A stretch of DNA of 57,787 bases, the filler included, from Bipalium vagum (lineage: Eukaryota): the NCBI GenBank assembly GCA_037834085.1. It is 3 parts of 3 records of this genome, joined end to end, with 100 filler letters (N's around TTAATTAATTAA, not from the genome) between each part and the next. Parts side by side here need not be neighbours in the genome. Positions count along the whole stretch, not along the records: positions 1 to 15,745 come from JBBMKC010148527.1; 2 more parts are not named here. The stretch is one strand, 5' to 3'. Each line of letters opens with the position of its first letter. Positions within the stretch are counted from its first letter, which is position 1. Positions 1-47,638 of the stretch are shown here, piece by piece. A program made the position numbers and the translations under genes. The notes under the pieces are model-generated. The model was not told where the DNA came from, ran no database searches, and was given only the letters and a program-made list of their open reading frames with translations.

Positions 1-281
1 GTAGACAGGTTTCCACAACTTCAATAAAATTAAAATCAAAGTCGATGGCAAAACAGCAAAACATTGAAGACTTCAAAAGAAGTGACCAATGGTGCAATCG
101 CTTTATGCATAGATATTTGGCTTCGTATAAGAGCACTTACCTCAATTAGACATGGGTTGCCCATAAACTGGCAGGAAAAAGTTGAGGTTTTTAATCTTTT
201 TATTATTGACAAAATTGTTGGCAAAGAAAAAAATCAGATCGGAAACATGGACGTTCACTTAGTTTTGACATGCCTAGCAAT
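1..281 (+). mobile_element. pogo/Tigger-family transposase remnant (CENP-B-type HTH and start of DDE domain)
   Basis: Frameshifted translation reads 'IKLKSKSMAKQQNIEDFKRSDQWCNRFMHRY..IRALTSIRHGLPINWQEKV...QIGNMD(E)V-LSFDMPSN'. This matches the pogo F-K-x-S-x-x-W-x-x-R-F motif and the IGNMDExP motif. Confidence 0.75.
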
Positions 282-989
282 ATTTGTATTTTATTTTTCA
301 TTTTTTCCCTTTATTCTTTCACTTTATATATATAATATAATATATAATTTATATTATATAATTTCAGAAAACAAACCATGGAGTATCACCAGCCCGACAT
401 GAAGCCCAACAGAATTTCCATTCCCACATTCATGGTTCAGGAGGAAGAAAAGATAGATTATTTGCTAAAGAAAGTAGACCTAAATAAGCATATAACTTTA
501 GAGAAGAAAATTCAGTAATAGGAGAGAAAGGAGTAGAAATATTGAGAAATTGGTTTCGACAGAATTCCGGAGCTATGAAATGGTTCCCGGAAGTACAGGT
601 CATCCCAAACAGATTGAAAGGCCGAGGAACAGATAATCGGCAAATGATCTGCATTGAGAAAAGAATCCCGGCATTAGATTTAGTCTACCTCAATAGACGA
701 GGGCAGACAATCGATTTCTTGAGCACTGGAAAAGTACTGATAGTGAAAAAAGGCAAGAAATAAGAGCCGAAGAAGCGCAGTCATCGATTAACCTAAAAGG
801 AGAAGCGGATGTGGAGATCTATTTAATCCCAATCCGGCCTACCATCATTGAAATAATCAATCGAAAGAGAGAAGAATGGAACCCAGCCAGAAAAAACAAG
901 CCAGAATGGGACATTACCCCACCAGAAGCATGGATAAAGAAGCAACCATATGCCGATAGCAAATGGTTAGCATAACTTGATGAAGATCA

Positions 990-1475
990 AATAGTAATAT
1001 TGGACGTCAGATTAGGTGTACCAATGTTTATGAGTAGAATGATCCCATTAGGAGCAGCCTTGTCAGATAGAAGAGGAAATTTTTATTTTTGTTCCATAAT
1101 AACTCCTCGTGCCTATAGAGCAGATTATCGGGCAGTTGACCATGGGATAACTCAAAAAATAGCAGGTCAAATGAACGAAATTACAGCAAAGTTGGAGTTA
1201 AGCAAACTACTGGAGAGGAAAATAGTGATAGAGCATGAAGTCAAGAAGGCTCTGGAGGCAATTAGGATTGATAGAAGTTGGATAAGAGGGTATTTGAATC
1301 TTGCAACCTTACTCATACTGAAGAAGGACAAGTTAATAGCATTAAGAATAGATGGAACTGAATCATACATATGTTGGTGCAATATTATACAAACAAAAGA
1401 ATGACAGATAGAAGAGGATGTTTGGCACTAACCAGGAACGCATCTTTCATGCAAGGATATGGGCAAGTGTAGCTA
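990..1475 (+). pseudogene. degenerate DEDDh 3'-5' exonuclease domain (RNase T / REXO4 / ISG20-like)
   Basis: Translation 'IVILDV...AALSDRRGNFYFCSIITPRAYRADYRAVDHGITQKIAGQMNEITAKLELSKLLERKIVIEHEVKKALEAIRI...WH*PGT..SFM..Y' follows the REX4/ISG20 pattern (VALDCE..VSIVN..G..LYD.YVKP...VTDYRT.VSGI....L.GRILVGH....DL..L...H....DA...M.LY). Several catalytic residues are lost, and there are stops and frameshifts. Confidence 0.65.
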
Positions 1476-2455
1476 ATAGATGCATAGAAGAATTATAAAT
1501 AGAAAGAAAGAAGGAAATGACACAGAAGACAGAAGAAAAGAAGCCAGAATTGGAAAAAATTAGAGTGAGTAAAAATTAAGCAATAAAAATCATCGGGGAA
1601 CATCCAATAGGGAAGCTAGTAACGAGACCGACAACCAGCAGAATGACGGAAGAACCTAATCGGGAAGTACCGGAATTATCAGACGAAGAACTCCAGTTGC
1701 AAGAAGAAGTAATAAATCTGGATACAACAAGCAATGAGGACGATTCCGAAGATAATAGTGAATAGGAATAAAAAGGAGAAGAATTATCAAGAAAATTCAA
1801 AGAATTCAGGTTTAAATCACCCCCAGTGGATCTAGATGTCAGCAGGGAAGAATTTGAAGTAATGATACCGAGGGAAGAACACGAAAGGAGACAGCAAGAA
1901 AAAGAGAAAAAGAAAGAAACCGAAGTAAAAGTGGTGGTAACAGACTTTAAACACAAGGTAGTAATAAACAAGTCACCATAGAACACAAGGGGAAGAAAAG
2001 AAGATAAGCTGGAAGATGAGGAAGTCGTAGTGTTAACCGAGAACATAGACCTATCAGTGAAAACTACAGAAGAAGAGGAAGAAAGTGAGGAATCAGGAAA
2101 CTCCAGTAGAGAGAAGGAACAAAGAACGGGATTGCGGTTAACATCATCATTAGCCGATATCCATGAAATGAGTAAAACTAATGGATGGTTTTGGAAGGAA
2201 ATAGTGTTGGAGTCAAAGAAGACAGGGCAGGAACTAGTTTTAATTAATGATAGGAAGAGGAATTCGACAATGAACCAATGAATAACGGGAAAGATGTAAT
2301 GTAACCGGGCTAGAGCCACGAAGAAGAAGAGTGGATAAGAAATAACAATTACTTGTATCTGCAAACAATTTTTTTTTATTTTAATAAAGTTTTTGCATTT
2401 GGTTGATTAATATTATCAAATTCAAAGGATCGAATTTTTTTAAATAGGGAGTGTT

Positions 2456-3231
2456 TGTTAGGTTTACCCAAGACACCCCGGGGGAAATATAACCAAGGTT
2501 CATCATAAAAAGGGTATAGATGTTAATAATAATATTAATATTAATAATTAAATTTAATTAAAACTTGAAAATAAATTTAAAATTCTCAGATATTTTTATT
2601 TTGAAAATACTTAGGACATAAAACAACCTTCCAAAAGTAATTTTTATTTTTAAAGAAGTCCTCAGAGAACGTACGAAATAAATTAAAGATTTTTTTTAAA
2701 GACAAAGATATTTGATCGAGAAAACCAAGATTTTGGCCGTTAATATTCAAGAATATTCAGATTTTTATTGGACTATGCTTAAAATTCCCCACCAGAGGGT
2801 TACCGGTAAGCAACCGTTAGGGCTCAGACGATAACTCGGGAGTTTTGACAGAAAATAAATTGTAAGAACTTTCTATTTTCTTTTAACTTAATTTTTTTTG
2901 TAAAAGTAATTATTCATTTAGTATACAAGTAATATTTTGTTTTAATTGAACTTTAATATTTTGTTTTAATTAAAATTTGATTATAATTGATTAGACATTA
3001 CGTTTAATTCATTCTTTATATTTATTGTTATTGGGTTGTATTGTGTTTTGATAAGTGGAAGGTTTGTGAAACATTTCAGACATTAATTGTGATCCCAGAC
3101 TTGATTATCTTTCTGTATTTTTTTGATTGTGTGATATAAATAAAATTGTTGCTTTACTGATTGTTATTATTTGCACCACCTAAGAGTTGGAGCCAGGTTT
3201 AAATTTAATACACTAAATAGTGAACACAACA
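2456..3231 (+). repeat. LTR (3' LTR, about 776 bp)
   Basis: Starts TGTTAGGTTTACCCAAGACACC and ends CACAACA (TGTT/AACA terminal inverted repeat). Preceded by a PPT. Colinear with 46790-47638. Confidence 0.75.
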
Positions 3232-3515
3232 ATTAATTTTTTTTCTATTAATCTATTCTGTTAATCTAAAAATTGATCTGAAAATCAATCATGCATAAAC
3301 AATTTTCATTAGACAATATATAAAAATTTAAGAGACGTTTATCTTATTTAGTTTTAGATTGTTTATTTCATTGATTATCTCATACACGGAAAACCAAATA
3401 TTAAAAAATTTAGCTATTCAATAGAAAATAATCAAGGGAAGTAATGAACAAATCAATCAATACACATTGGGGCCTTCTTTATTAGATAAATAATTCTAAG
3501 TATAATCTAATTATT

Positions 3516-3552
3516 TGTTGGGTTTACCAAGACACCCCCACGGGGAAAAATA
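3516..3552 (+). repeat. truncated 5' end of the same LTR family
   Basis: TGTTGGGTTTACCAAGACACCCCCACGGGGAAA matches the first ~35 nt of the LTRs at 2456 and 46790. Confidence 0.7.
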
Positions 3553-4154
3553 AATAATAAAAACTATAAATAATGTATAAATAATATATTATAAATAATA
3601 ATAATATTATTATGATTATTATTAATAAATTATCAAATTAAATAATGGAGAGAATACTCTTTTCTTTCGTTTCAATAATTTGAAAGAATTTGTCTTATTT
3701 TTCGTGCAAGAAATATATTTTTATTTATTTATTAATTTAAATTATTATGTGTATGAGGAAATATTTTATTTTTTGGTAAATTTATAATATTTTAAAATTT
3801 ATTATTAATTTTAATATTATTTTTATTATGTTTATTTTTTTATTATAAAGAATAAAAGACCAGAATAAGAACTTTTTTAAAATAAGTAAGTAAAAAATTT
3901 TATTGAATATTTAAAAATTAATACCAAATTTTAAATCGTATATAAAAATCTAATTTGCAAATTCTTTATACATATAATTTAATATATATTTATAATATAA
4001 AATTTATTAATTTTATAAATAAATAATATTATAGAGTAATGAAATGAAATAATTGTGATTTGATAAATAAAAAATTGTTTGAATATTCACTTTTGTAATT
4101 GAAGAAAGAAATATTGATTCATTTAAATATATTGATTATCATATTTATCATTAT

Positions 4155-4530
4155 TGTGAGGATTATTAATAATATTAAAACATCAATTCAATATTATTTG
4201 TTGTTTAAATAATACGGTTGTAGGCATATACGTTGTTTTGAATGCATTTTGAAAGCGTGTTTATTTTTATGATTCCATACATCAAAAATTAAGTTGTCAT
4301 AGCTGACGTGGCGACCACTCCAGGACACCAACCAGCGAACGAGGTCTCAAAAGTGAAAATGAAAAGTAAAGGAATAGAAAATTGAAGTATGAGACTTGAG
4401 GCGGTTAAGGGGTTTGATGTGAACTTTAAAAAGAGGGGGATGTGAGATAAATTTAAAATTAGTCGGGGGATGTATCTCAGCGGTCCATGCGCATGTGAAG
4501 GCTCCCGAATTTGAATCCCGGTATCTCCGA
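4155..4530 (+). mobile_element. TRIM-like non-autonomous LTR element remnant (PBS, short internal region, PPT, TG)
   Basis: An 18-nt PBS TGGCGACCACTCCAGGAC at 4309-4326 has reverse complement GTCCTGGAGTGGTCG-CCA, a tRNA-Arg-like 3' end. PPT AAAAAGAGGGGGA at 4428-4440 is followed immediately by TGTGAG. A second TGTGAG at 4155 may be the 5' LTR start, but LTR-LTR similarity is weak. Confidence 0.5.
4466..4529 (+). pseudogene. tRNA-Ala-derived sequence (pseudo-tRNA or SINE head)
   Basis: GGGGATGTATCTCAGCGGT...GCATGTGAAGG..CCCGAATTTGAATCCCGGTATCTCC. The acceptor stem GGGGATG/TATCTCC includes the G3:U70 Ala identity pair. A and B boxes are degenerate and the D/anticodon region is partly deleted. 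Confidence 0.65.
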
Positions 4531-5249
4531 TTAATTTTCAAACTAACAATTATCATTACTTAATAATATTTTTAATATAAAAAGAGGTTCCAGAAATGAG
4601 TTTGGATGACTTTTTTAAATAAAGAACTCGCCCCTAATTTAACGATTATTAAACTTCTACAATTTAAAGTTCTTAAAAATTATTAAAATTGTTATAACTT
4701 ACAGTTTTAATGGTTATTAAATATTAATAGGAAAAATTTTAATGTATAAATTGTAAATAAAAATGGATCACATATTTGAGATTTTTTTATTAATTAAATA
4801 ATATAAATAATAACAAAAAAAGATGAGATCATTTTTTGAACATTTTGTTTGAATAATCTAAATTACAAACTTATATTATTTGCACTTTTCATATTGGTTG
4901 AAATGATATCACAAAAATATAACTATTAATTTTTATTATTATTTTATATTATTAATATTTCATCTTTTATATTTTTATTTTTTATATTATTTAATATTTA
5001 AATAAAATAAAACGTAATGGAATAAAGAGTAAATATTAAAGGAATATTTTTCAATTAATTCTATTAATTTCGTTCCTTCAAAATAATTCATTTTCCTTGA
5101 AATGTAAAATTTTTTTTAAAATTTCTTTTTTTTAACATTTTTTTCTTTATATTTCATACAAAATATATTGATGTAAATATTTGAATATTTTTCATTTTAC
5201 ATTATATATAAAAAGATTTTAAGAAAATGAGCTGGAAAAAAATAAATAA

Positions 5250-5610: not shown

Positions 5611-7926
5611 CAGGTACTGTCTTTTTTCAAATGGAATGAGAAAATGAGCACTTCGCGAAAATGTGTTCAAATTTTTACATTTCGAATTGAGTTAAACAAA
5701 ATGTTATAGTTACAATTCTAAAATATTTATTACCAAAACATTATTAAAATGTTTCTAAGGTAAAAAATATCTAAATCTGAAGATTTATGACTTAATGAAT
5801 ATTCAATAATTAATTGACATAAAAATGGATCGAATTAATTAATACATCTTATACTTTTATTTTTGTCTTTTTCTGAACTCAATTCTGACTTTAATATTAA
5901 ATAAATGGTAAAATTATTTATATTTCAACAATTTTCTTCTATATAAGGAATATATAAAAATATATAATATAATTTAAGGATACCTGAAAATTGTTAGATT
6001 TTATTAAGAATACTTGTCAATTCGTTTGGAAGAAATATATAAAATAATAAAAGCTGTAAAATATAATCAGATTTTTAATAATTTATTTCTTTATTTTTTA
6101 TATAAAATAAAATAATTTTATTCCAAATAGAAAAAATAGTTCCATTATTTTAATTATTGGAATGGAATTATTTTATATTTAAAAATTGTTTTATTATTTT
6201 ATTGATAATATTTTCTATTTTCCTAATTATAAATCCCAGGCACCGTTCTAAGATAATCGAAAAACAATAAAATTACTCCGTATTTTTTTATTTTGAGATA
6301 ATTAATTATTTTTGAACAAAGTCAAAATTCAAGAAATTGTTTTCATTTGAGTAAGTCAAGTTTTATCATTAACAAATACATTAATCGATATAATAAATAT
6401 TTAAAAAACGATAGACTCATTCTCACATCCTAATCAATGACTGGCACTTCCATTTATGGTTGCCATAGGAACATATTTAATTAATGGTCTTGGGCTTGTT
6501 TTTCACTTAAATGTTAAAATTCTCAACCAATTGCCTATGAGCTTCTAAATTTAGCTTTCATTGAGCATGTAATAACAAGCGAATTTCCTTATTGGGTTCA
6601 ATGATAAATAATATTGCCAAGTTCTTTTTAAAAAAGTACACATTCTAAAGAACGACATTATAAAACGTGTTGATTACGTTAAATAGTTGGAATTACTCAG
6701 AATTTTTTACTGTTTCTCTGAGTTGTCAAAGTTAACGTATTTTACAATAAAATATTCTCATCCTTGTCTGTGTAACAATTTTTTGGTTATTTAATTGAAA
6801 CAAAACCAGAGTAAAGGAGAATATTATTTAAAAATGCAACATTAAAGGAGGTACGAAGTTCAGAATCCAATAACCTTTATGAACTTAAATTAGATCTTTA
6901 GGACTTTTCACTTTTGTAATTAAAATTATGAGACCTGAATATTAAGCCAGTATATATTGATCTACAGTGTTATTATTAATTATTGATAATATGTAACTCT
7001 TAATTAATTAAAATTCATAATTTAATTACTAATTTTTTAACAAAATAATATTATTAATATTATAAAAAAATTATTAAAATAAAACTTTAAAATTAAAAAA
7101 TGCCCTTTATTGAAGTGCATATAAATTTAAAAATTGTAAATGGAATTTTTTGTTTAAATTAATTAAAACTTGGATCAATTTTCAAACGACATCTTTGCAT
7201 GATATTCCGATTAGACGTTTGATTATAATAAAAATTGTATTACTGAATATTTGAAACGTCCTTCACAAACGATAATAATATTCACGTATTTACAAATGAC
7301 GAAATAAATATTCCGAGGAAACGAAACCATTCTCCCAAAATCATTCGTCCTCGTTTCCCTGAAAAATGATGTCAAAATAAATTAATTAAAAAAATGTGAC
7401 TTCACGATTTCATAATCGCTCTAATTGATCCATAGACAACTCCATTTTATTTTATCATTAATGGCGGCAATTTAACATAAAATTTTTTTTTCATTACTAC
7501 ATTTTATTATATTTTTGAAAGGTGAACGAGTTACAAGTACAGCTCATTAATGTTCACAACTTATGTAGAAGATGGGTGGATTGTTTTAGTTAAATGAAAA
7601 AAGTCTTTAAAGAAAAGAATTTTGTTTTTATTTACTTTTTTATCGATTTTTAATTTTTATTAATTAAAACAAATTAATTAACTAAGTCAAATTCATTACA
7701 AGTGTGTATTATAAAGATGATCTTATCATATTATTGTTCTTTGAATGACTCATGTTCTTTTTCATTGGTTGTCGTAATGTTAGTGATTACTAGGTTATCA
7801 TTGATTTCGTTATCAGTTTAAAATTAATGAGCAACAGAACACAAAAGCTTATCCCACACCAATGGTTACCCTAATGTCTGGCATGTAACCAAAACATTGA
7901 TTATTCAAAACAAATGTGGTACATAT

Positions 7927-8800
7927 ACAGAATGTTTCAAAGTCACTATCTATTTCAAAATAAATAATACACATAATTAGATGTCCTCATGGCGACTGTC
8001 AGGTTATCTACATTGCTGGAAACGATTTTTAACTTCACGAAACACGTTTTCCATCATTCTCTATCTGCTAAGTTCTATCCGTAATTAGATTTTTAAGTTC
8101 ATCTATATTTTTAATTCTCTAACCATTGTACACCTTGGACAATGTGAATTCAAAGCCTTAAAATCTAAGGGTCTTATTTCTGGAGAGAGTGCAGTCTATA
8201 TTTGTCGATCAATTATATCACGGACAATTCAACGATTAAGGATTGTACAAATGACAGGGTGATCAATCCTACTGAAACAAAATTAGTCAAGAATGTCATC
8301 TGCAATTAGTAGTGTTTCCTCAAATTTTTGAAGCATCTATATCATCTGGAAAGAAATAAGGTCCATACACTTTCCGTTTTGACATCCCCAGTTAAAAATT
8401 TACTTTCAGTGAATCTCTAATATATTCAAGAAATTCAATTGGCTTTTTCAATTCCCCAAATCCAACAATTGTGACAATTAAATTTGCCTCTTTAATTTGA
8501 TCTATCAGGTCTGCTCACATGTGCACTCTAAGAATATTCATCTTCTTGTAAATGAGGAAAAACTTTAAAATGATAGGTTTTGATTTCAAAATAGTTCACA
8601 GAATTCTACAGACTGGTACAAATGAAATATCTAACAAATTTCTCGCCTGACGAACCGAAAAAGTTCTTGCTCAAAGTTATCTTATCATTTGACTTCTTTC
8701 ATCAGATTTCCTTGGACATCCACCTCTGACATCATCATGAACAGATCCAGTTTCCTATTCTCAGCGAGCATTTAATTTTACAAAATGATTCTGATCAAAT
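7927..8800 (-). mobile_element. Tc1/mariner-superfamily transposase remnant
   Basis: Minus-strand broken motifs include an FQQDG-like segment and 'LSPEIRPLD', matching SPDLTPLD. A CAG(A/G)..TGTTTCAAA-type terminal repeat lies at about 7928. Confidence 0.6.
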
Positions 8801-14810: not shown

Positions 14811-14907
14811 ATAATAAACTATCAAAATATAATTATGAACTACACGAAATTAAAATATTATTTTTGCGATTTTAAGTTAATAAATAAATAAATATAAAAA
14901 TTTTAAC

Positions 14908-15036
14908 CACAAGAATGGGTTCCTGGTACAAAGAACGTCTGTGCCGGACAGGTACACTCGCTTGCGCCAGGATGACAGATGCTGTTATAGACATCGGTGC
15001 AGTCCTGATCCATACTGCATTTCAGATCCGTTAAAA
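14908..15036 (-). CDS. isolated internal exon encoding a 6-Cys EGF/EB-like module
   Basis: Acceptor tttttttccattcag and donor G|gttaaa bound a 129-nt phase 1-1 exon that is open. It encodes (V)LTDLKCSMDQDCTDVYNSICHPGASECTCPAQTFFVPGTHSC and forms a GC-richer island in AT-rich DNA. The rest of the gene was not identified. Confidence 0.7.
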
Positions 15037-15454
15037 CTGAATGGAAAAAAAACTTCATAAAAAAAGAAAACATAAATAGCAAAAAACAAAGAACCTTGAA
15101 GTATCATTTTAACATTGTGTTGCTCTCATCAAGAAATGTAATTAAAAGCCCATCAACAGAAAAAAAATGTAAAGTTCAATGTCCTGTTCCATCAAGAAGA
15201 AAAATTGTAATGGAAAATTTGAAAAAAACATTTCCTTCCTTTTACTTTTTAGATTAAATCTTTGTAATAATTATTCACAAAAGAATATTTTCAAATGATT
15301 TTTTTGTTTAAATTCATCAAATATTATACAAAAAAATAAAAATGAAATAAAATAAATATATAATAATATTGATTTAAATATTACGATATAACTGCATAAT
15401 CAAATTACTTGTCTACTTTATTCTTAATTGATCAATATAACACGAATATTATTA

Positions 15455-15745: not shown

Positions 15746-15845
15746 NNNNNNNNNNNNNNNNNNNNNNNNNNNNNNNNNNNNNNNNNNNNTTAATTAATTA
15801 ANNNNNNNNNNNNNNNNNNNNNNNNNNNNNNNNNNNNNNNNNNNN
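15746..15845. other. artificial 100-nt contig spacer (44N-TTAATTAATTAA-44N)
   Basis: A six-frame-stop linker is flanked by equal N runs, identical in structure to 33663-33762. Confidence 0.9.
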
Positions 15846-17564
15846 CAGTAGGCTCAGTTTGCTTTTAATTTTTGTTTTTGAAAACTAATTTAATGGTAAT
15901 CCCAATAGGCTCAGTTTGCTTTCAATTTTAATCCCAAGTAATGATCAAAAATTTTTTGGCCATTTTATTTAAAATTTCTTGTTTATTTATATTAATATTT
16001 TTCTTTTAATTATAATTATAGTAATTATTTTTTACTATTTTTATTTTAATTCAATTATTTATTACCATTTTTAACATTATTTTAAAAATTTTTCCCAAAT
16101 TATTTATTTTTAGTAACTTGATGTTACTACTAAATTCTTTATGGTAAACCTAATAATATTATTATATTTTTTAAATTATTAATTTATTATTATTTAATTT
16201 ATTTAATTATTTTAATCATTCATATTTTAAATACTTTTTCGGTCAGAATTGTTAACATTAAAACAATTTCTTACAACAAATATATTTTACACAAAAATAA
16301 ATAAAGTTACATGCACTTTTATGAAATCACAAAGTTGGAAAATGTTGTTGATAATCACAAACAAAGGTATAAAGTGTTGTGTGGTAATCACAAAGGTATA
16401 AGCACAAAAGGTTTATCGATAAGTTCACGAATTGGGTGCTGATTGTGTTTTTGGAGTCTTGTTTGGTCGTAGTCTCCACACATAAATAAATATTTTTAAA
16501 AAGTAAAAACTAAAATTATTCTTACTTTTTTTGTAATTAATAAATTTCATTTGGGGTTGTTCATTTAGAGTGAGATTTACACTTTATTTGAAGATTTTAC
16601 GAAATATAAATTAATTTAAATCACTGCAGATATATTATATTTAAATTGCGCATTGATAGACTTTTACTTTGCATATTTTTTCTTCTAAATTTCATCTCAA
16701 ATTTGTACTATTTTCTAATCTTCGAATTTATAACTTAAGGTAAATTTTTTGTCTTTGATTTATTTGTAAATTTCGTGTACAGTGTTTTGAGGTACACCAC
16801 TCTAAATAAAATTAACTAAAACATGTGATTTTATTTATTAATTTTCTAATTGTAAAAATATTATTATGATGAGGTTTTGAATAAATGTTTTCTAATTTGA
16901 ATATAAAAATTTATAAATGATACGCCTACATTCCATGATCCCCAAATGGGACTAGTCCTAAAATCTGAGTAAATCTTTTTTTAATTTTTGGAAACTTATT
17001 CAGTCTTAATAGGTCATATATCAAAACTATTTTACACTAAGTAAATCAAATTTTTGTCCTCTTGAATCTGGAATGAAATGGGTTAAAGAGAAACTGAAAC
17101 TAAAAAACTTAAAGATTCTTTTTTTAGAATATTTCCAATTACCCAACATATTTAAACTTCTAATAAAACAAACGTTAAATATTACTCTATTATTAAACAT
17201 TAAATGACTTATTTTTCAAAATAATTTTTTTTCTATGATTTCAAGATATTTATTTGTAATTTATCAAGATATATTATTTTGAAATTAACATTAAGTCATT
17301 ATACAAATTATTAATTAACTTAATAACTACATTAGAATATTTGTTATAATTTATTTTGGAAATATTATTTTTCAAATTTGTTATCACTTCAGTATTTTAA
17401 AAGTCCTGAAAAGCCATTTTAGTAAAAATTATATTTATCTCAATGTGTTTTTAATTTCAAATCAATTCAAAATAATACTATAAAAAAATCAAATAATGAT
17501 GGTAAGTTATTTTTAGGTTCTTTGTTTGAATAATTATTTTTTGCAAAAATTCAATTTTTGAGAA

Positions 17565-20500
17565 ATGTCAGATGAGATCTTAAATTTACAGTCTATTCAT
17601 CCATTTAAGACAAGCAAAACTAATATTTGCAATAATCAGAGGTATAACACAATTGATTCGCATTCGGGATTGCTTGCTTCTGCTGCAGAAAAGGGTATAC
17701 GTTGTGGTTAACATTTAAATTTTGTTTAATAATAATTAGGTATATACATTTATGATTTAAATCATTATGAAAAGTGCAGCGAAGAGTCAACTGCTAGAAA
17801 AGACAAATTAATTGACCAGAAATCAATTTTAAAAATATATGACTCTGAAGAATTTTCCTGGCTTGAATTTAACTGTGATGGTTCATTACTATTAATAACA
17901 AGTTCAGACGATGTTGGGGATGTGAAAGCCATAAAAATAATCGATGTTAATAAAACAGTACAAAAGGTAAATTATTTTTATTAGATTCAGTAATAAATTT
18001 TACAATAGCAACATGAAACTATTTTGTGTACTTTCCAACCAAATTCACCTTTTAAATTGAATGACTTGAAATGGCATCCAACTGAAAGCAAATTACTGTT
18101 AATAGTGTTAAATGACACAGTCAACTTGTGCTCAGTCAAAAGTGGTGAATTATTAATCATTAATTCAAAAACAAACAGTTTCTGTGGTAAATTTTGATAG
18201 ATATTTGATAGCATTAAATAAATATAATTAAGCATCATGGAGTCCAAAGGGTAAACAGTTTTCAGTAATAATGAAAAGTGGAACAAACGGAAATTTTATT
18301 ATCAATCAATATGACAACATGATGGTGGAGAAAAGATCTACAGAAATGATAAATGTTTCTAATGAATTCAAAGGTATTTGTTTGACTGGAATATATAACT
18401 TTATCTTTGATTATAAGAAATTTTTAAAGCTTTTTGTCAATTACACATTTTTTATTAAGTAACTTGTCTTGTATAATTTTTTATTACACTTCAATAATTA
18501 ATTTTAACAATATATATAATTAATGCTTGTTTCCGATAATAATTTTTCTTTTTATTCACCATTTCAACCAAATTTATTATATTTGATTTTTAGTGAATTT
18601 CGATCTGATTCCAATTGATATATATTGGTACTCCACCTACAATTATATTATTGGATTCCGTGGACAGACTCAAGATACCGAAAAATTTAAAATATATACC
18701 TGTAGTTTTGGAATTGTAATATTTATTATTTTTATATACATATGGTCAATAAATTCATTAAGAAATCAAATATTCAAGTGTTATCTAATGTTGCAAGTTC
18801 TAATGACTGTATTAATCCCAATCCCGGACCTCTTGCTCGCTTGTATTTTCTACATATCATGGATTGGAATTTGATTGTCCTAGCAAATAATAGCTGTGAG
18901 AGTGCTGTAATCTATGGATATGATAAGGATTCAAATGTATTAAATTGTTATATGTAATTATTTTATTTTCTAATTCAGTTGGAAATGCTCAGTACATATT
19001 GCTTGCCGATCGAGGGTAATGTTGTTGGGTTGTCTTGTGATTTCACTTCTGAAAAAACATTCATTTCTCCTGTGACTAAAAATTTATTGTCATACCCTAT
19101 GCTTCTTATTAATATGAGCAATGGAAATTTGTTCGGAATTTATTTAGTCCATATAACCAAGACATTAGAGAAAAAACACAAAATAAAAAGTTTATTAGAA
19201 ATTTTTATTTTAGTCACATTTTACTTTATTAATTCTAGTTCCAGAGAGTAAATTGATTTCAAATGAAACAGTTATAGGTAACGATTTTCATGTTGAAAAT
19301 TCTGATACTGGTCTATCCAATGTGTTACATAAAAATGATTTTGAAAAAACTAAACAAAGTGTCGAAGTTGTGGACAAGAGTCAGCAAAGTTTAAACAATA
19401 TTACGACAAAACAAGAAAAAACGGAAATTGTTATTTCTGCAAGACCAAATTTGTTTGGAACTACAAACAATACAAATTTGGCAAAAACTAATTTATTTGG
19501 ATCTCCAAATGAAAATCCAATGAATCCTTTAAAAACAAATATGTTCGCTTCAACCAATACAGTGACTTCTACAACAAACATATTTGGCTCTGCCAATGCA
19601 GTGAGTGATTTTAAGCCAAAGTTATTCGGAACACAGACAACTGAAAGTGATTCAAAACCAACTTTATTTGGAACACAGAAAACTGAAAGTGACTCTAAAC
19701 CAAATTTTTTTGGAACACAGACAACTGAAAGTGATTCAAAACCAACTTTATTTGGAACACAGAAAACTGAAAGTGACTCTAAACCAAATTTTTTTGGAAC
19801 ACAGACAACTGAAAGTGATTCAAAACCAAATTTATTTGGAACACAGACAACTGAAAGTAATCTGAGACCGAATCTTTTCGACTCCGTCAATACAGCGAGT
19901 GATTCTAAGTTTAACTTATTTGGATCATTGAATTCGCAGTGTAATGTTAAATCAAAACTATTTGATTCAATCAAGGTTGAAAATATTCAAAAATCAAACT
20001 TGTTTGCATTAAAAAATTCAGACATTGGTAATAAAATAAATCCTTCTGCATCCAAAACCATTGATAATAGATCTAACCAAAGTAGTTTATCAGAAGCAGA
20101 ACAGTTAGAAAACGTTTCTGGTGTAAGCTTATCAAAATCCGAGCAGTCTGAAAAAAACATTCAAATTACTTCAAGTCTGAAAACTAATGCAGAAAATTGC
20201 ATATTTAGTGCATCGAGCAAAAAATTTGAAACAAGTACAGTTATACCAAACACAAATAAAAATATATTTCCGAATAAAATTTCTGCTAACTGTAAAATGG
20301 AAGATCATAAAGCAAATAAACCTGTTATAAATAATTTTCAGAATCAGGGTTCTGGTGATAGTGAGAAAACAGGTAAGAATTTTCTTGTTATCCAGGTTTC
20401 TGAGACTTGATTAAAAAAATATGATTATTATCAAAATACTTATTATGTTTAGTCACAAGATAACCTTTGATTGATTTCATTAGATTTATTTATTTATTAT

Positions 20501-23500
20501 TTGGTTAACTATGATTAGATTTTAATTATTTTAATTATAATAATTATTCATGAAATCTGAAATTTCTTACAAATATAAAATTATTTGCATAACTTAAACT
20601 TTTGATGTTTATTAAGTAACGAATTAAAATTTTCATTTTTTAACTAATTATTTTGACATTGAAAGCTCGATATTTTTCCTTGAAATCGGATTTCTTTCGT
20701 TGAAATTTTTGGTCTGATTTAGAAGATTATGATTTGGTACTAATCAATCTGATTTCTCTTTTAGAAACGTCTGACAAATTATTTCAATTTTAGTTCCAAG
20801 TAGAGAATTTCAGTATTTTACTTATCAATATTTAATATTATTTTAAGAATTATAAGTTTTTAATTTTGGTGTAATTATGATATGATATTATATATGAAAA
20901 AACATATGATATTATATAAATACATTTTGAAAATATTATTTTCAGATAAGTTGGTCATGGATAAAAAGACCCAGAAAACCGTAGTCAATGAAGGTAAAGC
21001 ACAAGGAAACAAAAGCTCATTGAAAATAGAGATGATTGACAATGTTCTTGTGGTATAACTCATTATACAGGAATTATGGATATAAATATTTTTAGGATGC
21101 CGTCAAATATTTAGAAGAGAGATTTTCACAAATTAAAATCAATATTAATAATCATATTTTAAAGTCCCAACAGTTTTTCAACAGTGATTCAATGAAATAT
21201 GAAATACCTTTAATGTTCAGCGATACAGAAAAATGTAACATCAGTCTTAAAAAGATAGAAACGGTACATTTTGATTGACAGCTTTTTATATATTTTCTTT
21301 ATGGGTTTAGTCCAACAACAGTTTGAATTTGAAGTCAATATCCCTTCTCCAAGATATTGAAATATCACTGGAATTTACCTCTAGACTACAGTCAGCAATT
21401 TCAGAATCAAAGGTTAAAAACAAATCCATAAAACCAACTGCAAATCCGTTATTGAAGAAAACTGCACTGAACCTTGTGGATTTGAAAGAAAAAGTCAATT
21501 GTGGTTTGAAAGATTTGGAGGAGGCTTTGGATCAGATTGAAAAAGAAAGGTTAAATAGTTTTTTACTCATACAAAAGTAATACTGAATTACTTATTTTTA
21601 GAAATTACGAACCAATTGTTTTGAGAAATCAATATCAATTGGACGATGTCAGTCGAATTCTTAACGCTTATCGTAAATCCATGTGCATTGAAAAATCGAA
21701 AATCGATTTATTGAAGAAACATTTGAAAGAAGTCAGCAACCCAGAATTCGATGACGTATACAATTATACGAAATTGATAGATGCAAAATCACAGGTTAAA
21801 GATCAGAGAATGGAGCAACATTTATATTCCTTGATGTGTAAAAGACCAGTGACAAAATTGAAATTTTATTCAGAAGAATGTAATTCTTCTGGCGCGACTG
21901 CTAATGTGAACAAATCATTAAAATCACAATTACGGCACACAAATGCACCTAGAAAGTCAAGCGAACATGTTATCCATAATGAAGTGAAAAATACAATGCA
22001 ATCTCCCAGTTTTAAATTGGTCGATAAAAACATTTATAAGAGTCCTTTGAAAAATGAACAAACAAATCAGGATAAAAGTTCAATTCATTTCGAAGGGAAA
22101 CCTACACTATTTTTAAATAAGTCCACAGAAAAACAAGTATTTATCACTACTGCTCCAACATCACATCAGGGACCAGTGAAAACTATATCAAGTCTGTCGA
22201 GTAATATGCAAAAATTTACAACGGAAAACAACGACAAAAATTTGATGAGATCAACATTTCCCGTGAAGTCCGAGGTTTGTTCAACTTCGAAAATTGAAAA
22301 TTCTAATTTTTCAATTCCTAACGCGTCTATATGTTCTGTAAATAGCCTTCCTAGGACCACAAGTACGATAAGCGCTTCGCAATCATTACAATCTTCATTC
22401 AGTGTTACGGCAAAACCTGCAGAATTGGCAGAGAGATCAAATGATCAAAGGAATTGTCAGCAGGTAACCAATACATTAAAATCCGAAAAAGTTCTTGAAA
22501 CTAAAGAAAATAAAGTTATAGTCGTTACAAATTCTGTGATGTCTAGTGCTGCTCAAACAATAATAAAAATTTCAAGTTCAGAATCTCTAATCAATGTGTC
22601 ACCCGACTGCCAGACTGCTATCCAAAATACCAAAGGACTCAATGCATCAGTAAATTTGATTTCAACGAAAACTACAATTACAGAATCAAATCCATCTCAT
22701 AAATTTAGTGAAGGCTTATTTTCAAATTCTGCAATAAATAAAAAGCTTAACACGCCTGGTTCAGGATCAGTTGAAAGTAATTCCTTAGATCAAACGAATA
22801 ATGTGTTACTTGGGTCTTCAATAGACACCATCAATACATCACCATTGGGTACATCTTCAAAGACTATTACTGGTAATCTTTTTGGTGACAATAATGCAAC
22901 AAGTCAATCTGGAATGGGACTTTCTGCTTCAAAGCCGACACTTATAACGACAAGTATAGTACTTTCGACATCATCTTCACAAATAAGTGGACAATTTGCA
23001 AATTCTAAATCATTTTTCGGAACGTCAGCCGTAAAATCTTCATTTCAACAGCAACCAGGGATCTTTGGACAAACTGGTTCTAGTAAACCCAATAGTGGAT
23101 TATTTTCAAGTCCTGTAACTTCATCTCAAGGACTGTTTTCACCATCTATAATAAATATACAAAAAAGTGATGATGAACTTTGTTCCATTCAATCTACCAA
23201 TTCCGATAAAACAACAATTTCCACAGAATTATTGAACCAAAATCTACTATTATCTACTACTAGTGAGTCTGTGCAGGGATTGTTCACCAGCTGTACCATA
23301 TCGACTAGCTTGCCAATACAAAAATCTGAATTATTTGCTGCTACTAGTGAAAATCAGAGTGTCACTTCTATTTCAGAATCTGAAAATAAATCTAATACCA
23401 CCAATTTGTTTGCAGTATCATCTTCATCAACACAATCCCCAAGTCTATTCAGTACAAATAAACCAAACGGGGGATTGTTTGGTAGTATGACGAGTTCCAG

Positions 23501-25215
23501 CGGTTTATTTTCTTCTCCCAATCAAAATCAAAAGGGAGGAATATTTGGAAGTCCGGCAACACCGAGCTTGAATAGCACTTCGTTGTTTGGTTCATCAGGA
23601 GTCAGTGATGGGACAAATGCTAAGAATGTTTCAGAAGTAACCAATAAACCAACTGGTGGATTGTTTAGTAACAGTCCCGTAACCAATTCGACATTGTTCG
23701 GGTCATCCAATAATACCAACAAATCAGAGTCTGGATTATTTGGCGTTGCTTCAACGAACAAGCCTACATCAAACTTATTCGGAAATATCACGAAATCAGA
23801 TCAAAGTAGTAGACTATTAACAGATACCACCAAAGCACCGCAAAATTCAACAAATGAATTTATTTCAAATCCAGCGTTGAGTACTGGAACTGTTGGTCTT
23901 TTCTCGACATCGAAATCTGGAACTGGCGGTCTTTTCTCGACCTCGTCATCGAATTCTGGAACTGGTGGTCTTTTCTCGACCTCGACATCGAATTCTGGAA
24001 CTGGTGGTCTTTTCTCGACCTCGACATCGAATTCTGGAACTGGCGGTCTTTTCTCGACCTCGAAATCGAATTCTGGAACTGGCGGTCTTTTCTCGACGTC
24101 GACATCGAATTCAGGAACCGGAGGATTGTTTTCATCTAATCAGAGAAGCGCTGGACTATTTTCAAATACCACTTCGAGTCCAGGAGGTGGGCTTTTCTCT
24201 AATTCATGTCAAAATCAAGGCGTTACACCATCATTGTTTGGTGGAGGAGCAACAGCAAATAATTCACAATCAGGTGTTGGTTTAAACCAATCTAGTCAAT
24301 CCATCAATAGTGGATTATTTGGAAATACCACAGTATCGAGTCAGCCCTCGGGTTTTTTTGGTAAAAATGCCGTATCTCCAAAATCCGGAAATCTCTTTGA
24401 AAGTACAAATTTATTCGCTTCTCAACAAGAACAAACTAAAACAAATTCTACTTCGTCTGGTAAAACTTCTTATTTCATATAATTGACAATTATTATTATT
24501 TGTAACAGGTTTTTCTTTTGGGTAAGATTGAGGATAAATTTCTGATTCCATATTGATTTGGTTCAGCTCTTCATTTATCAGCGGATTAGGTGGAAGTCAG
24601 ACTTCAAATAATTCTTCAAATATATTTGCATCGGTAAGAACGAGCACAACTACAGGAAGTAATTATAATAACCTTTTGATTATTAATCAGTCAATTAATT
24701 AAGATTCAAGTAGTTTATTTGCAACCAATAATCAAACCAGTAGCCTGTTTTCATCTAACAACTCAAAGGTGAACAATGCTCAGCCATCGTCTCTATTTGG
24801 TTCTCGTCCATCTTTTGGTAGTACAGCACCCAGTCTGGGACAAAATAATAATGTTCAACAGGGAACGGGGTTATTTACCAGTTCGATTTTTGGAAATTCA
24901 AATGAGTATTGTTTTCTATTATTATTATTAATCAGATAATCTTTTTTTAACAATTAATTTATTAATCTTATATTTATTGATTTTGTATTACCATTATTAA
25001 TTATTAATATTCCTCATAACACTTAAGTAATCAAATGACATTTGGAGACATGGCAACGAACCGAGCTAATCAAGATTCTTTTGGAGTCAAATCAAATGAT
25101 AGTTTTCAAGCAGGAAATCTCTTTCAATCAACGTCGTCAAGTGATATCTTTTTAATCCTTGTTCATGGTTAATATTATTTTATCAGGTCCTTCCTTCACT
25201 CAACGACGAATGTAA
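17565..25215 (+). CDS. NUP214: nucleoporin Nup214/CAN (Nup159 orthologue), 17 coding exons, about 2040 aa
   Basis: Hand-spliced exons: 17565-17694, 17740-17966, 18009-18186, 18233-18373, 18594-18715, 18763-18936, 18979-19189, 19239-20372, 20946-21052, 21096-21263, 21311-21549, 21602-24459, 24509-24521, 24582-24658, 24704-24905, 25028-25140, 25187-25215. All introns are GT-AG with consistent phases (6123 nt in total). The protein has propeller motifs 'WLEFNCDGSLL', 'DLKWHP' and 'SWSPKGKQ', a coiled-coil middle, an FG/GLFS tail, 'FSFGGLGG' and the C-terminus 'PSFTQRRM*'. Confidence 0.88.
19613..19880 (+). repeat. coding tandem repeat, about 6 x 42 nt (KPxL/FFGTQT/KTESDS)
   Basis: Near-identical 14-aa units with an 84-nt higher-order dimer lie within Nup214 exon 8. 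Confidence 0.9.
23885..24135 (+). repeat. coding tandem repeat, about 6 x 39 nt (SGTGGLFSTSTSN)
   Basis: Near-identical units are visible in both DNA and protein within Nup214 exon 12. Confidence 0.9.
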
Positions 25216-26689: not shown

Positions 26690-27409
26690 CAATAATAGAC
26701 AATCTTAAAACATTCATAGCCAAACTGCAAAACTGGCGAGGTAAAATGGATATATGAAACATGGTAATGTTCAAAAAACTATCCAGTATAATAGAAGAAT
26801 TTAAATGCGAAACCAATGTCCATTAAAAAAAAGAGATCACAAAACACCTTTAATCTCTTGAAAATGAGCTTGTGTATTATTTCCCCGAGTTGACTACGGA
26901 AGAAGCTTTACTAGTACGATATCCATTTTCTGATTCGGTTGATATATCCAGTATTCCTGATGATTTGCAAAATGAATTCTTGGAATATAGGAACGATTCT
27001 GCGGCTCGCCACTTATATGACGAAAATCTGCTGACTCAGTTCTGGTGTTCTATGTATAACTCATATCAAAAAGTCACAATGATGTCTTTTAGAATTTTAC
27101 TTCAATTTGCTTCAATATGTGAGAGTGGATTTTCAACACTTCTGCAATTGAAAAGTAAAGCAAGAAACCGACTCAATGTTAATGCCGAAATGATGTTGGC
27201 ATTAACACAAATCAACCACGTATTTTAAAGCTCGTCAATGAGTTACAATATCAACAGTCTCATTAAGATTTGGTGATTGAATAAATGTTTTGTTATTAAT
27301 AATAAATTATTAGTAAAATTAATTGTTATTGAATTTCATATAGTGGGATCGCCAACATTTGTTTGGTTCAAAAATGGGGTAGCGATACCAAAAAGGTTGG
27401 GAAACCATG
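26690..27409 (+). mobile_element. hAT (Buster/Charlie, ZBED5-like) transposase C-terminal remnant with 3' TIR
   Basis: 'LTQFWCSMYNSYQKV...ILLQFASICESGFSTLLQLKSKARNRLNVNAEMMLAL' is the hAT dimerisation domain. The element ends AAAAAGGTTGGGAAACCATG, a Charlie-type terminus. Confidence 0.85.
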
Positions 27410-33662: not shown

Positions 33663-33762
33663 NNNNNNNNNNNNNNNNNNNNNNNNNNNNNNNNNNNNNN
33701 NNNNNNTTAATTAATTAANNNNNNNNNNNNNNNNNNNNNNNNNNNNNNNNNNNNNNNNNNNN
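33663..33762. other. artificial 100-nt contig spacer (44N-TTAATTAATTAA-44N)
   Basis: Same linker structure as 15746-15845. Confidence 0.9.
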
Positions 33763-43196: not shown

Positions 43197-44245
43197 TATT
43201 AGATTATCTAAAGAGTTTTCGCCGATTTTATGAATAGGCGGCGAAAAACTTCTACAGATATTTGTATAAATATTTTATTTGTTTAAATATTTCAATTATT
43301 TAAATTTAATTGCCACAGCATTCAAATTGCTTAAAGAATAAATTATTAAATTAAAAAAAATTAAATTAAAAATTAAAAATTATTATTATAAAAATTTATT
43401 TATATTAAAGATAGGCATATTGATAGCTGTGAAATCGCAGTAGACCTCAGTATTCATCATCAAACCGTTTTTTAGCCATTTAAAGAAAGCTGATTTTTAA
43501 AAGAGACTGATGTTTGGATTCCGCATGATTTAACACCGAAAAATTTAATAGACAAAATTTCAATATGAAAAACATTGCTGAAAAGAAACTATCGAACCAT
43601 TTTTGAAACGTTTTATTAAGGGAGGGTCGAAAAGTAGATCAGATAGGAGAAAAAATTTAGAAAACAATCTTGGACAAAAAACTTGGTGAAATCCCACAAG
43701 CCGTGACCAAACCGGAATTGACGCCAAAGAAGGTCATGCTTTGTATCTGGTGGGATTACAATGGAATCATCTACCAAGAAATACTCCAACCAGTTCAAAA
43801 TGTTGACTTAATTTACTAGAATACAGCAGGTAATTGTAATAAAGCGGTCAGAATTTATCAATAGGAAAAGCTTTGTGTGTTCAACATGACAACGTAAGAC
43901 CACATGTGTCTTTGGTGACTCAGAAAAAGTTAAAGGATCTTGATTTGGAGTTTTGTTGCACATCTACATATAGTTCTGATATTGCACCATCAGATAATCA
44001 TTTGTTTCGTTCACTTCAGAACTTCCTTAATGGACTTCCTTGAATTCAAAAGTGGACAGCAAAAACCACTAATCAGTTTTTTAGCGAAAAATCAGAGAAG
44101 GTCTACAGTGAGGAATTCTGGCTTTACCAAAAAAATGGAAAGACATTGTAGTTCAAGATGGTGCATATGTAGTTTAATAAAGTTCTTATTATTTTTAAGA
44201 TTTTATATTGCTAAAATCGGCGGAAACGTTTTAGCAAACCAAATA
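43197..44245 (+). mobile_element. near full-length decayed mariner element with both TIRs
   Basis: TIRs are TATTAGATTATCTAAAGAGTTTTCGCCGATTT and AAATCGGCGGAAACGTTTAGCAAACCAAATA. Motifs include WIPHDL, KPELTPKKVMLCIWWD, QHDNVRPH and YSSDIAPSD. Confidence 0.85.
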
Positions 44246-46789: not shown

Positions 46790-47638
46790 TGTCGGGTTTA
46801 CCCAAGACACCACCCCCCGGGAATATGTAACCAAGGAAAAACATGAAAAGGGATATATATGTTAAAAATAATAATCATAATAATAATATTCATAATTAAA
46901 GTTAATTAACAATTGAAAAACAATTAAAAATTCCCATATATTTTTATTTTGAAAATACTTAGAAAATAAAACAACCCTCCAAAAGTAATTTTTATTTTTA
47001 AAGAAGTCCAAAAGAGGTAAATTATAAATATTAATGGTCATCAGAAAATAATTTTTAGGGAATTTTAAGATTAATTTTGAGATTATTTCAAGAATAATCT
47101 CCAGTTGAAGATCAGTTCAGAAAACTATATAAGCAGAGGGATTCTAGCATAATTTCACCCTGGTAAAAATAGTTTTTATCAAAAGTTATTCGTAAAGATG
47201 ATATTTGTTTAAGAAGATTGTTATTCGCTGTTATAGAAAATATTCAAGTATATTCAGATTTTATATTGGACTATGCTTAAAATTCCCCATCAGCGGATTA
47301 TCGGTGAGCAACCGTTAGGGCTCAGACGATAACTCGGGTGTTTTAGCGGAAGATAAACCGTAAGAACTTTCTAATCTCTTTTATCTTTATTTTTTTCTAT
47401 TTGTTAAAGAATTATTAATATTGATTAATTTAGGGTACAAGTAATATTTTGTTTTAATTGAACTTTGATTATACAATAATTGATTTTTATTGGACATTAT
47501 TGTTGAGACATTATAGTTAATTAATTCATTCTTTATAATTATTGTTATTGGATTGTATTGTAACTGATTGTTATTATTTGCATCACCTAAGAGTTGGAGT
47601 CAGGTATAAATTTGATACATTAAAAAGTGAATAAAAAT
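46790..47638 (+). repeat. solo LTR of the family at 2456-3231
   Basis: Shares the 5' end, the block AACCGTTAGGGCTCAGACGATAACTCGGG and the 3' end with 2456-3231. The central segment differs and contains TATATAA. No PPT or PBS is adjacent. Confidence 0.75.

What the first reader, a model, noticed from the sequence alone, without database searches (positions are those of the whole stretch)
379..3231. LTR retroelement carrying a REXO4/ISG20-like DEDDh exonuclease in the env/ORF3 position
Seen: an intronless purine-skewed ORF (about 430-1475, broken by stops and frameshifts) ends in a recognisable DEDDh exonuclease fold. A second acidic low-complexity ORF follows (about 1590-2280), then a Gypsy-type PPT and an LTR that has a solo copy elsewhere in the window. 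Known: bdelloid LTR elements and Terminons carry captured DEDDy exonucleases, and ISG20 is an antiviral RNase. Inference: this may be a retroelement family that captured a REXO4/ISG20-type RNA exonuclease plus an unknown N-terminal domain, for self-regulation, small-RNA evasion or RNA processing. I do not know of a described REXO4-type case.
Basis: partly seen in the sequence, partly recalled or inferred. Interest (0 to 1): 0.8.

Follow-up and report, generated by a model that had tools for sequence, protein, structure and literature searches.

The report
Retroelement carrying ISG20-like accessory nuclease gene
This is the decayed tail end of a multi-copy LTR retroelement whose last gene resembles the antiviral RNase ISG20; intact relatives carry that gene at the end of a row of accessory genes, likely made by splicing and likely used against host defences, while this copy's branch has likely lost the cutting activity.

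Summary
Window 378-2338 is a broken gene with an ISG20/ISG20L2/REXO4-type exonuclease domain (985-1329). A purine tract and an LTR (2456-3226) follow, and a solo LTR lies at 46790-47633. The gene is multi-copy in the one run that holds it.

Corrections: it is probably one gene (N-domain, exonuclease, acidic tail), not two. The LTR ends at 3226. Upstream lies a Tc5/pogo relic, not pol. This copy lacks two of five catalytic residues and groups with relatives that lack them too.

Four metagenome loci hold intact relatives under strong purifying selection (dN/dS about 0.03-0.04). There the exonuclease is the last of up to eight intronless ORFs (RING, TRAF, coiled-coil), most behind one acceptor-like motif. 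An LTR follows in two loci, and in one of them a PBS, a donor-like site and gag. The same motif occurs once in the window, just before this gene.

Best reading: an accessory RNA-end-binding gene, likely spliced and aimed at the host, active in one branch and a pseudo-nuclease in another. No pol was seen, and the host is unidentified. Ten paper searches found DEDDy cases in LTR elements and DEDDh in DNA transposons, but no ISG20-type LTR case.

The parts
1..282 (+). Tc5/pogo DNA-transposase relic abutting the element; not pol, not part of the retroelement
   Evidence: HTH_Tnp_Tc5 E=4.5e-6 on 3-146; end of the relic near 282 judged by eye from the translations
283..367 (+). T-rich spacer ending in an acceptor-like motif (359-367)
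   Evidence: Motif occurs once in 57.8 kb, and 16 times in L001-L004, 15 of them just before an ORF start; pattern defined after seeing these sites
378..2338 (+). One broken accessory gene, likely a single ORF: N-domain, exonuclease fold, acidic tail
   Evidence: No T-rich spacer between 361 and 2340; same layout in one ORF in P0004, P0005, P0007, P0009; stops listed
545..745 (+). Conserved part of the family-specific N-terminal domain (frame 2)
   Evidence: tblastn to P0006 E=3e-6, 39% over 56 aa; HMM without the window E=1.4e-5 on 566-667
985..1329 (+). ISG20/ISG20L2/REXO4-like exonuclease core (frame 1); ExoI Glu and ExoII acid absent
   Evidence: A possible ExoIII H...D at 1441-1458 lies outside the HMM match and is uncertain
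1500..2338 (+).
   Evidence: At the stop codons at 1979, 2279 and 2297 all laid contigs differ from the window at a base of the codon, so these stops look private to this copy
2442..2451 (+). Purine tract, 4 nt before the LTR (PPT-like)
   Evidence: Sequence
2456..3226 (+). 3' LTR, TG...CA
   Evidence: 95 contigs with diverse loose ends behind 3226
3516..3640 (+). Fragment of a third LTR start
   Evidence: Alignment A1; high summed depth at 3485-3618
46790..47633 (+). Solo LTR of the same family
   Evidence: 82% over 659 columns; blastn E down to 9e-80; AAAA on both flanks is uninformative as a target duplication

Best explanation
This is the decayed 3' end of a multi-copy LTR retroelement whose last gene has an ISG20/REXO4-type exonuclease fold; the gene is likely made from a spliced subgenomic RNA and likely acts on host RNA defences by binding RNA ends, and in this copy's branch it likely does so without cutting. 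Shown: the homology, the LTR and its copies, the multi-copy state, the missing catalytic residues in this copy and in four relatives, and, in intact relatives, the layout accessory array - exonuclease - LTR - PBS - gag with purifying selection. Inferred: (1) a donor-like site just behind the PBS splices to the acceptor-like motif before each ORF, as in complex retroviruses; (2) the window's family has the same gag-pol backbone; (3) the protein serves host interaction, not core replication, because its neighbours are RING and TRAF proteins and because one branch keeps long open frames after losing the active site; (4) intact members trim 3' ends of single-stranded RNA, such as small or antisense RNAs, and degenerate members bind or shield RNA ends, as recalled for Maelstrom, EXD1 and Exuperantia. 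Odds: element-borne ISG20-type gene 0.9; spliced expression 0.7; family-wide loss of catalysis in the window's branch 0.7; host-directed RNA role 0.45.
For: Homology: (family profile: ISG20L2 3e-15, ISG20 5e-12); models of two relatives match ISG20/ISG20L2 first (Z 20.8, rmsd 2.1 over 162 residues). Multi-copy: 5065 pieces laid on 1-4000, 3628 of them under 95% alike; at 1092 five contigs sum to depth 14666 while long contigs have 16-39. Context of relatives. Acceptor and donor motifs. Selection: dN/dS 0.026-0.041 in the exonuclease (4 of 6 pairs, 2 saturated) and 0.05-0.14 in the N-domain (6 of 6) among L001-L004; 13 of 23 differences between the window copy and laid contigs fall at third codon positions, P=0.019. 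Degenerate branch: window groups with P0005-P0008 at UFBoot 91; HMM of the degenerate set 74.5 bits against 47.8 for the intact set (4 and 3 sequences).
Against: No pol, RT or integrase in the window or in the four loci. The loci with known context are all of the intact branch and only about 24% identical to the window's exonuclease; no locus is held for P0004-P0008. The window LTR has no blastn similarity to those loci beyond the terminal TGTTAGG start. The family-wide state of the ExoI and ExoII codons was not established: 20 contigs differ from the window at one base of the ExoI Glu-position codon, but that table was cut, and both codons fell in the unlisted edge zone. The window copy may retain ExoIII H and D, unlike the other degenerate members. 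The tree is unrooted, has 10 sequences and no host outgroup. Tail homology is not significant. L001's LTR-PBS-gag join may be a collapsed assembly of two LTRs. No functional data of any kind.
Confidence: 0.6

Rival explanations
1. The gene is an active nuclease of the replication cycle: it trims the element's RNA, the tRNA primer or cDNA 3' ends, and the window copy lost its catalytic residues only by decay after insertion.
For: All five catalytic positions are kept in L001-L004 and P0004, with strong selection. Rodriguez et al. propose 3'-end processing for DEDDy ORF3s (PMC5408684, passages). The family-wide residues of the window's family were not shown.
Against: P0005 (1113 aa) and P0007 (511 aa) are long open ORFs lacking most catalytic residues, and the window groups with them (UFBoot 91). 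A replication enzyme should not tolerate that loss. Most LTR elements replicate without such a gene (recalled).
Confidence: 0.2
2. The window's family is a non-autonomous or otherwise different LTR-bounded repeat that carries accessory genes without its own gag-pol.
For: No pol in the window; upstream is a Tc5 relic. No pol in L001-L004. LTR depth far exceeds internal depth.
Against: L001 links the same gene type through its LTR to a PBS and a long intact gag. The loci are 3.9-8.2 kb contigs, too short to reach pol in a long element. Solo LTRs explain the depth excess.
Confidence: 0.13
3. A host REXO4/ISG20L2-like gene or processed pseudogene lies next to an LTR by chance.
For: The domain is of a cellular family. 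An acceptor before the ATG could also be a host exon boundary.
Against: Many diverged copies. Nearest proteins among 1.84 billion representatives are six unnamed ones with the same layout, not ordinary REXO4. The T-rich acceptor spacer is retained, which a processed pseudogene would lose. Relatives sit directly before an LTR in 2 of 4 loci; the other two end too soon or were not examined for it.
Confidence: 0.04
4. The ORF is a divergent env or env substitute in the ORF3 position.
For: Position last before the LTR and probable spliced expression match env.
Against: Sequence and fold are an exonuclease. No hydrophobic anchor is visible in the translations (judged by eye). In relatives it is one of many accessory ORFs.
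Confidence: 0.03

Closest known systems
DEDDy-type ORF3 of bdelloid Juno/Vesta LTR retrotransposons and Terminons (PMC5408684)
   Same: A captured DnaQ-fold 3'-5' exonuclease as accessory ORF before the 3' LTR. The paper reports DEDD changed to DEED; intact relatives here also have Glu at the ExoII acid position.
   Different: Here the domain is DEDDh/ISG20-type (ExoIII H-x4-D), fused to a family-specific N-domain and an acidic tail, last in a multi-ORF array, and has a catalytically degenerate branch.
Human ISG20 / ISG20L2 and REXO4 (cluster F.5 of PF00929 in PMC3985635)
   Same: Best sequence and fold matches.
   Different: 22-26% identity; intronless and element-borne; different N-domain; ExoII Asp replaced by Glu in intact members and lost in others.
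Burro / GYPSM1 giant gypsy-like elements of planarians (PMC6431247 section 7)
   Same: Retrotrans_gag with CCHC knuckles; accessory MATH/TRAF and RING-type domains; AT-rich host with very many copies.
   Different: No exonuclease is listed for Burro in that section. Burro puts most extras in one polyprotein, whereas L001-L004 have separate ORFs behind acceptor motifs. Host and pol are unknown here, so membership is untested.
KolobokD DNA transposons with a DEDDh exonuclease (PMC9587614)
   Same: A DEDDh accessory nuclease on a transposon.
   Different: DNA transposon; its nuclease resembles Exuperantia, TREX and ERI1 rather than ISG20/REXO4.
Complex retroviruses with spliced accessory genes (recalled)
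   Same: Donor-like site behind the PBS and several acceptors before short host-directed ORFs.
   Different: No env or pol seen; splicing not shown by RNA; apparently an invertebrate gypsy-type backbone.

Membership tests
ISG20/ISG20L2/REXO4-type DEDDh exonucleases | Sequence profile closest to ISG20/ISG20L2 among DEDD nucleases | tested here: met
   Window peptide: ISG20 E=3.2e-4. Family profile: ISG20L2 1e-20, ISG20 2.5e-14, SDN1 2.4e-7, PolC 2.6e-3
ISG20/ISG20L2/REXO4-type DEDDh exonucleases | DnaQ fold | tested here: met
   Tested on models of relatives L001 and P0004, not of the window copy: ISG20 Z 20.8, ISG20L2 Z 19.5
ISG20/ISG20L2/REXO4-type DEDDh exonucleases | Pfam RNase_T hit for the window peptide | tested here: not met
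   No family at E up to 10; hit in P0004 and P0009, 2 of 6 relatives
ISG20/ISG20L2/REXO4-type DEDDh exonucleases | Complete D-E-D-H-D catalytic set in the window copy | tested here: not met
   ExoI D present, ExoI E and ExoII acid absent, ExoIII H and D uncertain. Complete, with E for the third acid, in L001-L004 and P0004
ISG20/ISG20L2/REXO4-type DEDDh exonucleases | Catalytic state across the window's own family | tested here: inconclusive
   Tables cut or codons in the edge zone
ISG20/ISG20L2/REXO4-type DEDDh exonucleases | Nesting within host REXO4 or ISG20L2/AEN in a tree | not testable with these tools
   No search returned host sequences as usable proteins
Ty3/Gypsy LTR retroelements (Metaviridae) | LTR with TG...CA ends, present in several copies | tested here: met
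Ty3/Gypsy LTR retroelements (Metaviridae) | Purine tract before the 3' LTR | tested here: met
   Window 2442-2451; short and decayed. L001 and L004 have a C-run there instead
Ty3/Gypsy LTR retroelements (Metaviridae) | PBS and gag behind the LTR | tested here: inconclusive
   Met in relative L001: PBS-like 14-mer at 4621 (tRNA-Lys type, recalled), Retrotrans_gag 2.8e-6 and zf-CCHC 3e-5. Absent from the window, which holds only the 3' end
Ty3/Gypsy LTR retroelements (Metaviridae) | pol with PR-RT-RH-IN order and Gypsy-type RT | not testable with these tools
   No genome held; no pol in the window or loci; 4 viral-contig scans empty
Ty3/Gypsy LTR retroelements (Metaviridae) | Target-site duplication | tested here: inconclusive
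   Solo LTR has AAAA on both sides in an AT-rich setting
Bdelloid DEDDy ORF3 elements | DEDDy (RNase D-like) nuclease | tested here: not met
   ExoIII H-x4-D in intact members; RNase D Z 10.3 against ISG20 Z 20.8
Burro-like giant elements | MATH/TRAF accessory domain | tested here: inconclusive
   Present in L004 by Pfam and a similar ORF in L002; not in the window
Burro-like giant elements | About 5000-aa polyprotein with env between gag and pol; planarian host | not testable with these tools
   Contigs too short; host is coded as organism A

The most novel reading that the evidence does not exclude
An undescribed lineage of large invertebrate LTR retroelements is organised like complex retroviruses. 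One post-PBS donor feeds a row of acceptor-led accessory genes (RING ligases, TRAF, coiled coils) ending in a captured ISG20/REXO4-type RNase fused to a cupin-like domain. The gene split into an active branch and a pseudo-nuclease branch, and both serve to blunt host small-RNA or antiviral RNA defence: a restriction-factor fold turned into a counter-defence.
Probability: 0.35. Interest if true: 0.85.

Novelty: new variant of a known kind. Interest (0 to 1): 0.66.

Why it matters
Accessory nucleases in LTR elements were reported as DEDDy type in rotifers. An ISG20/REXO4-type capture would be an independent event, taking a fold that vertebrates use against viruses. The function of such accessory nucleases is an open question (PMC5408684). 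This family offers natural active and degenerate members to compare side by side, so the question becomes testable. The array of up to eight acceptor-led accessory ORFs suggests retrovirus-like regulatory complexity in an invertebrate element.

Tried and rejected
No genome is held for the window, so copies could not be walked to pol.

Word-based protein searches gave little: none for the window peptide among 484 candidates, 2 self-hits for alignment A2 among 8000 scored, 3 close relatives for P0009's exonuclease. Viral-contig scans with P0007, P0001, L001 gag and P0004 found nothing; the scan with A2 could not run.

No RNA holder listed. Run X1 holds only 0.18 of the stretch's words, so it is a relative or another individual; its summed depths are not copy numbers.

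Tail homology between the window and five relatives: no pair beat shuffles except P0009/P0013, and an HMM of two tails did not find the window tail.

N-domain: no Pfam hit, no usable Atlas hit, no PDB sequence hit. The structure lists were filled by the exonuclease. Cupin-fold viral proteins appear at E about 4e-5 to 2e-4 with 8-18% identity: a lead only, as the domain was not folded alone and both folding jobs are used.

(profile A3 against P0001) is circular, since A3 holds the window sequence; not used. Kuafuorterviruses were checked on a recalled lead and rejected (5-6 kb, no such ORFs). Five look-ups of earlier findings were empty. Grohme 2018 is not held. No complex was predicted.

Full report
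SETTING. The window is AT-rich (1-kb bins 14-38% GC) and eukaryotic: a multi-exon FG-nucleoporin gene at about 17.7-25.2 kb and relics of mariner, Tc5 and possibly hAT transposases. No genome is held. The host is unidentified; an invertebrate such as a planarian is my guess, not a result.

THE OBSERVATION. 378-2280 is 65% purine against 50% elsewhere and is broken by stops and frame changes. The stretch 700-1476, read with X at its stops, has no Pfam hit but matches human ISG20 at E=3.2e-4. An LTR starts at 2456 behind a purine tract at 2442-2451. A second copy lies at 46790-47633 (82% over 659 columns) and a third start at 3516. Upstream, 3-146 is a Tc5 DNA-binding domain, so the window holds only the element's 3' end.

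MULTI-COPY. One run holds part of the stretch (0.18 of the words). Laid on 1-4000 it gave 5065 pieces: 499 at 99% or more, 938 at 95-99, 2160 at 90-95, 1468 under 90. All 30 bins have cover, with very high summed depth over the LTR and parts of the gene. In the exonuclease, five contigs sum to depth 14666 at 1092, a mean of 2933, while long contigs have 16-39. The tool warns that depth is no copy number; I take it only as evidence of many copies. Of 23 listed differences in 985-1270, 13 fall at third codon positions, 7 at first and 3 at second (P=0.019), which suggests the frame was under selection in the family.

RELATIVES. A phmmer search of 1.84 billion representatives gave six hits at E up to 1e-3 (P0004-P0009, 27-32% identity), all without an informative name. 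The four complete ones share one layout in a single ORF: N-domain, exonuclease, low-complexity acidic or polar region, short C-terminal part. The window's 545-745 matches the N-domain of P0006 (E=3e-6). HMMs built without the window find only this locus: exonuclease 70.7 bits, N-domain E=1.4e-5. The family profile matches ISG20L2 and ISG20 best. Models of P0004 (pLDDT 54.5) and of L001 residues 1-351 (68.6) match the same two structures first (Z 20.8 and 19.5). The Atlas also points to RNase_T/REXO4 clusters, with feature scores under 0.9.

ONE GENE, NOT TWO. T-rich spacers flank the block (241-360 and 2341-2460), and none lies inside it except one 60-nt bin at T 0.38 within the exonuclease; L004 has such spacers between its ORFs. 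The acceptor-like motif occurs only at 359. At three stop codons of the tail (1979, 2279, 2297) all laid contigs differ from the window. Against this, tail homology to relatives is not significant, and the frame junction between exonuclease and tail was not resolved.

CATALYTIC STATE. L001-L004 and P0004 keep all five positions, with Glu in place of the ExoII Asp. P0005, P0007 and the partial P0006 and P0008 lack most of the positions they cover. The window has the first Asp, lacks the ExoI Glu and ExoII acid, and may keep ExoIII H and D, though that part lies beyond the HMM match. In a 10-sequence unrooted tree the window groups with the degenerate set (UFBoot 91), and the degenerate-set HMM scores it higher (74.5 against 47.8 bits). 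Whether young copies of the window's own family lack the residues was not established.

CONTEXT OF INTACT RELATIVES. A metagenome scan with P0010 gave 4 loci from 32 pattern matches. In all four the exonuclease is the last of a row of same-strand intronless ORFs. L004 has eight: two RING-H2, a coiled-coil-like ORF, a C3HC4 RING, a TRAF (RING, zf-TRAF, MATH), two coiled-coil-like ORFs, and the exonuclease. The motif before the ORFs occurs 16 times in the four loci, 15 of them just before a start codon, and once in the 57.8-kb window, before the ATG at 378 (the pattern was chosen after seeing these sites). In L001 the gene is followed by an LTR (3033-4614, ends forming an inverted repeat), a PBS-like 14-mer at 4621 (tRNA-Lys type, recalled), a donor-like site at 4651 and a gag ORF with Retrotrans_gag and zf-CCHC. 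This order probably reflects two LTRs collapsed in assembly; it still ties gene, LTR and gag to one element. L004 has an LTR at 6912-8082 followed by other DNA. L002 ends about 330 nt after the gene, and I did not examine the 1 kb after the gene in L003. dN/dS is 0.026-0.041 in the exonuclease (4 of 6 pairs, 2 saturated) and 0.05-0.14 in the N-domain. These loci belong to the intact branch, about 24% identical to the window, so their layout is carried over to the window's family by inference: shared N-domain, shared acceptor motif, last position before an LTR with the same first seven bases.

MECHANISM. Shown: fold, layout, selection, two branches. Inferred: a donor behind the PBS joins to each acceptor to give one mRNA per accessory ORF. 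The company of RING and TRAF genes points to host manipulation. Survival of long open frames without an active site points to a role that needs RNA-end binding more than cutting. I favour counter-defence against small-RNA or antiviral RNA pathways (0.45) over a replication role. SDN1, a small-RNA-degrading nuclease, is the third PDB match. Inactive DEDD proteins that keep RNA binding are cited in PMC5408684. None of this was tested.

PRIOR WORK. Seen: PMC5408684 passages (DEDDy ORF3 in bdelloids, DEED variant, no mention of ISG20); PMC6431247 passages and section 7 (Burro with MATH/TRAF, BIR, BCL2, env, no exonuclease listed); PMC9587614 passages (KolobokD DEDDh in DNA transposons); PMC6338049 part 1 of 4 (names a DnaQ-like exonuclease as a known accessory domain of LTR elements, citing Rodriguez 2017 among others); PMC5718144, PMC3985635 and PMC11410931 passages; PMC11673190 parts 1-2 of 3 (irrelevant). 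Ten searches listed no ISG20/REXO4-type case in LTR elements; I saw listings only for the other papers, and two searches were far larger than their listings (30 of 1198, 15 of 180). Grohme 2018 is not held, Repbase is not searchable, and I read no supplements, so an earlier annotation may exist.

VERDICT. A real feature and a new variant of a known kind: an accessory nuclease in an LTR element, but of a different nuclease family, in a multi-gene array, with a degenerate branch. The window copy itself is a decayed fragment. Interest 0.66.

Noticed in passing
L001 226-2843, L002 54-4652, L003 226-2854, L004 1-6727: Arrays of up to eight intronless accessory ORFs (RING-H2, C3HC4 RING, TRAF, coiled-coil-like, exonuclease), most starting directly behind the same acceptor-like motif. 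This may be more notable than the window copy itself.
   Followed up: partly
L001 3019-3032 and L004 6898-6911: The sequence just before the LTR is a run of C, not a purine tract, in both intact-branch elements. Plus-strand priming is unexplained.
   Followed up: no
L001 4615-4660: A 6-nt spacer separates the LTR end from the PBS-like 14-mer, and a donor-like site follows 16 nt after it.
   Followed up: partly
L001 1347-1850 (N-domain of the gene): Predicted all-beta domain with weak Foldseek matches to cupin-fold viral proteins; no Pfam family.
   Followed up: partly
window 17700-25200: Multi-exon FG-nucleoporin gene, Nup214-like by layout (recalled), with very long exons (398 and 975 codons) and 42-nt and 39-nt tandem repeats.
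   Followed up: no
window 3753-3886: High summed depth and joints from about 3815-3834 to the LTR start in run X1; possibly another repeat often next to this LTR, or low-complexity noise.
   Followed up: no
window 14906-15103 (-): Cysteine-rich exon-like frame resembling a small disulfide module; no Pfam hit.
   Followed up: partly
window 26854-27225, 43661-44040: DNA transposon relics: hAT-like (E=0.024) and mariner Transposase_1 (E=8e-12).
   Followed up: partly
window 15746-15846 and 33662-33762: Runs of N (assembly gaps) next to TTAA repeats, which produce false repeat calls.
   Followed up: no
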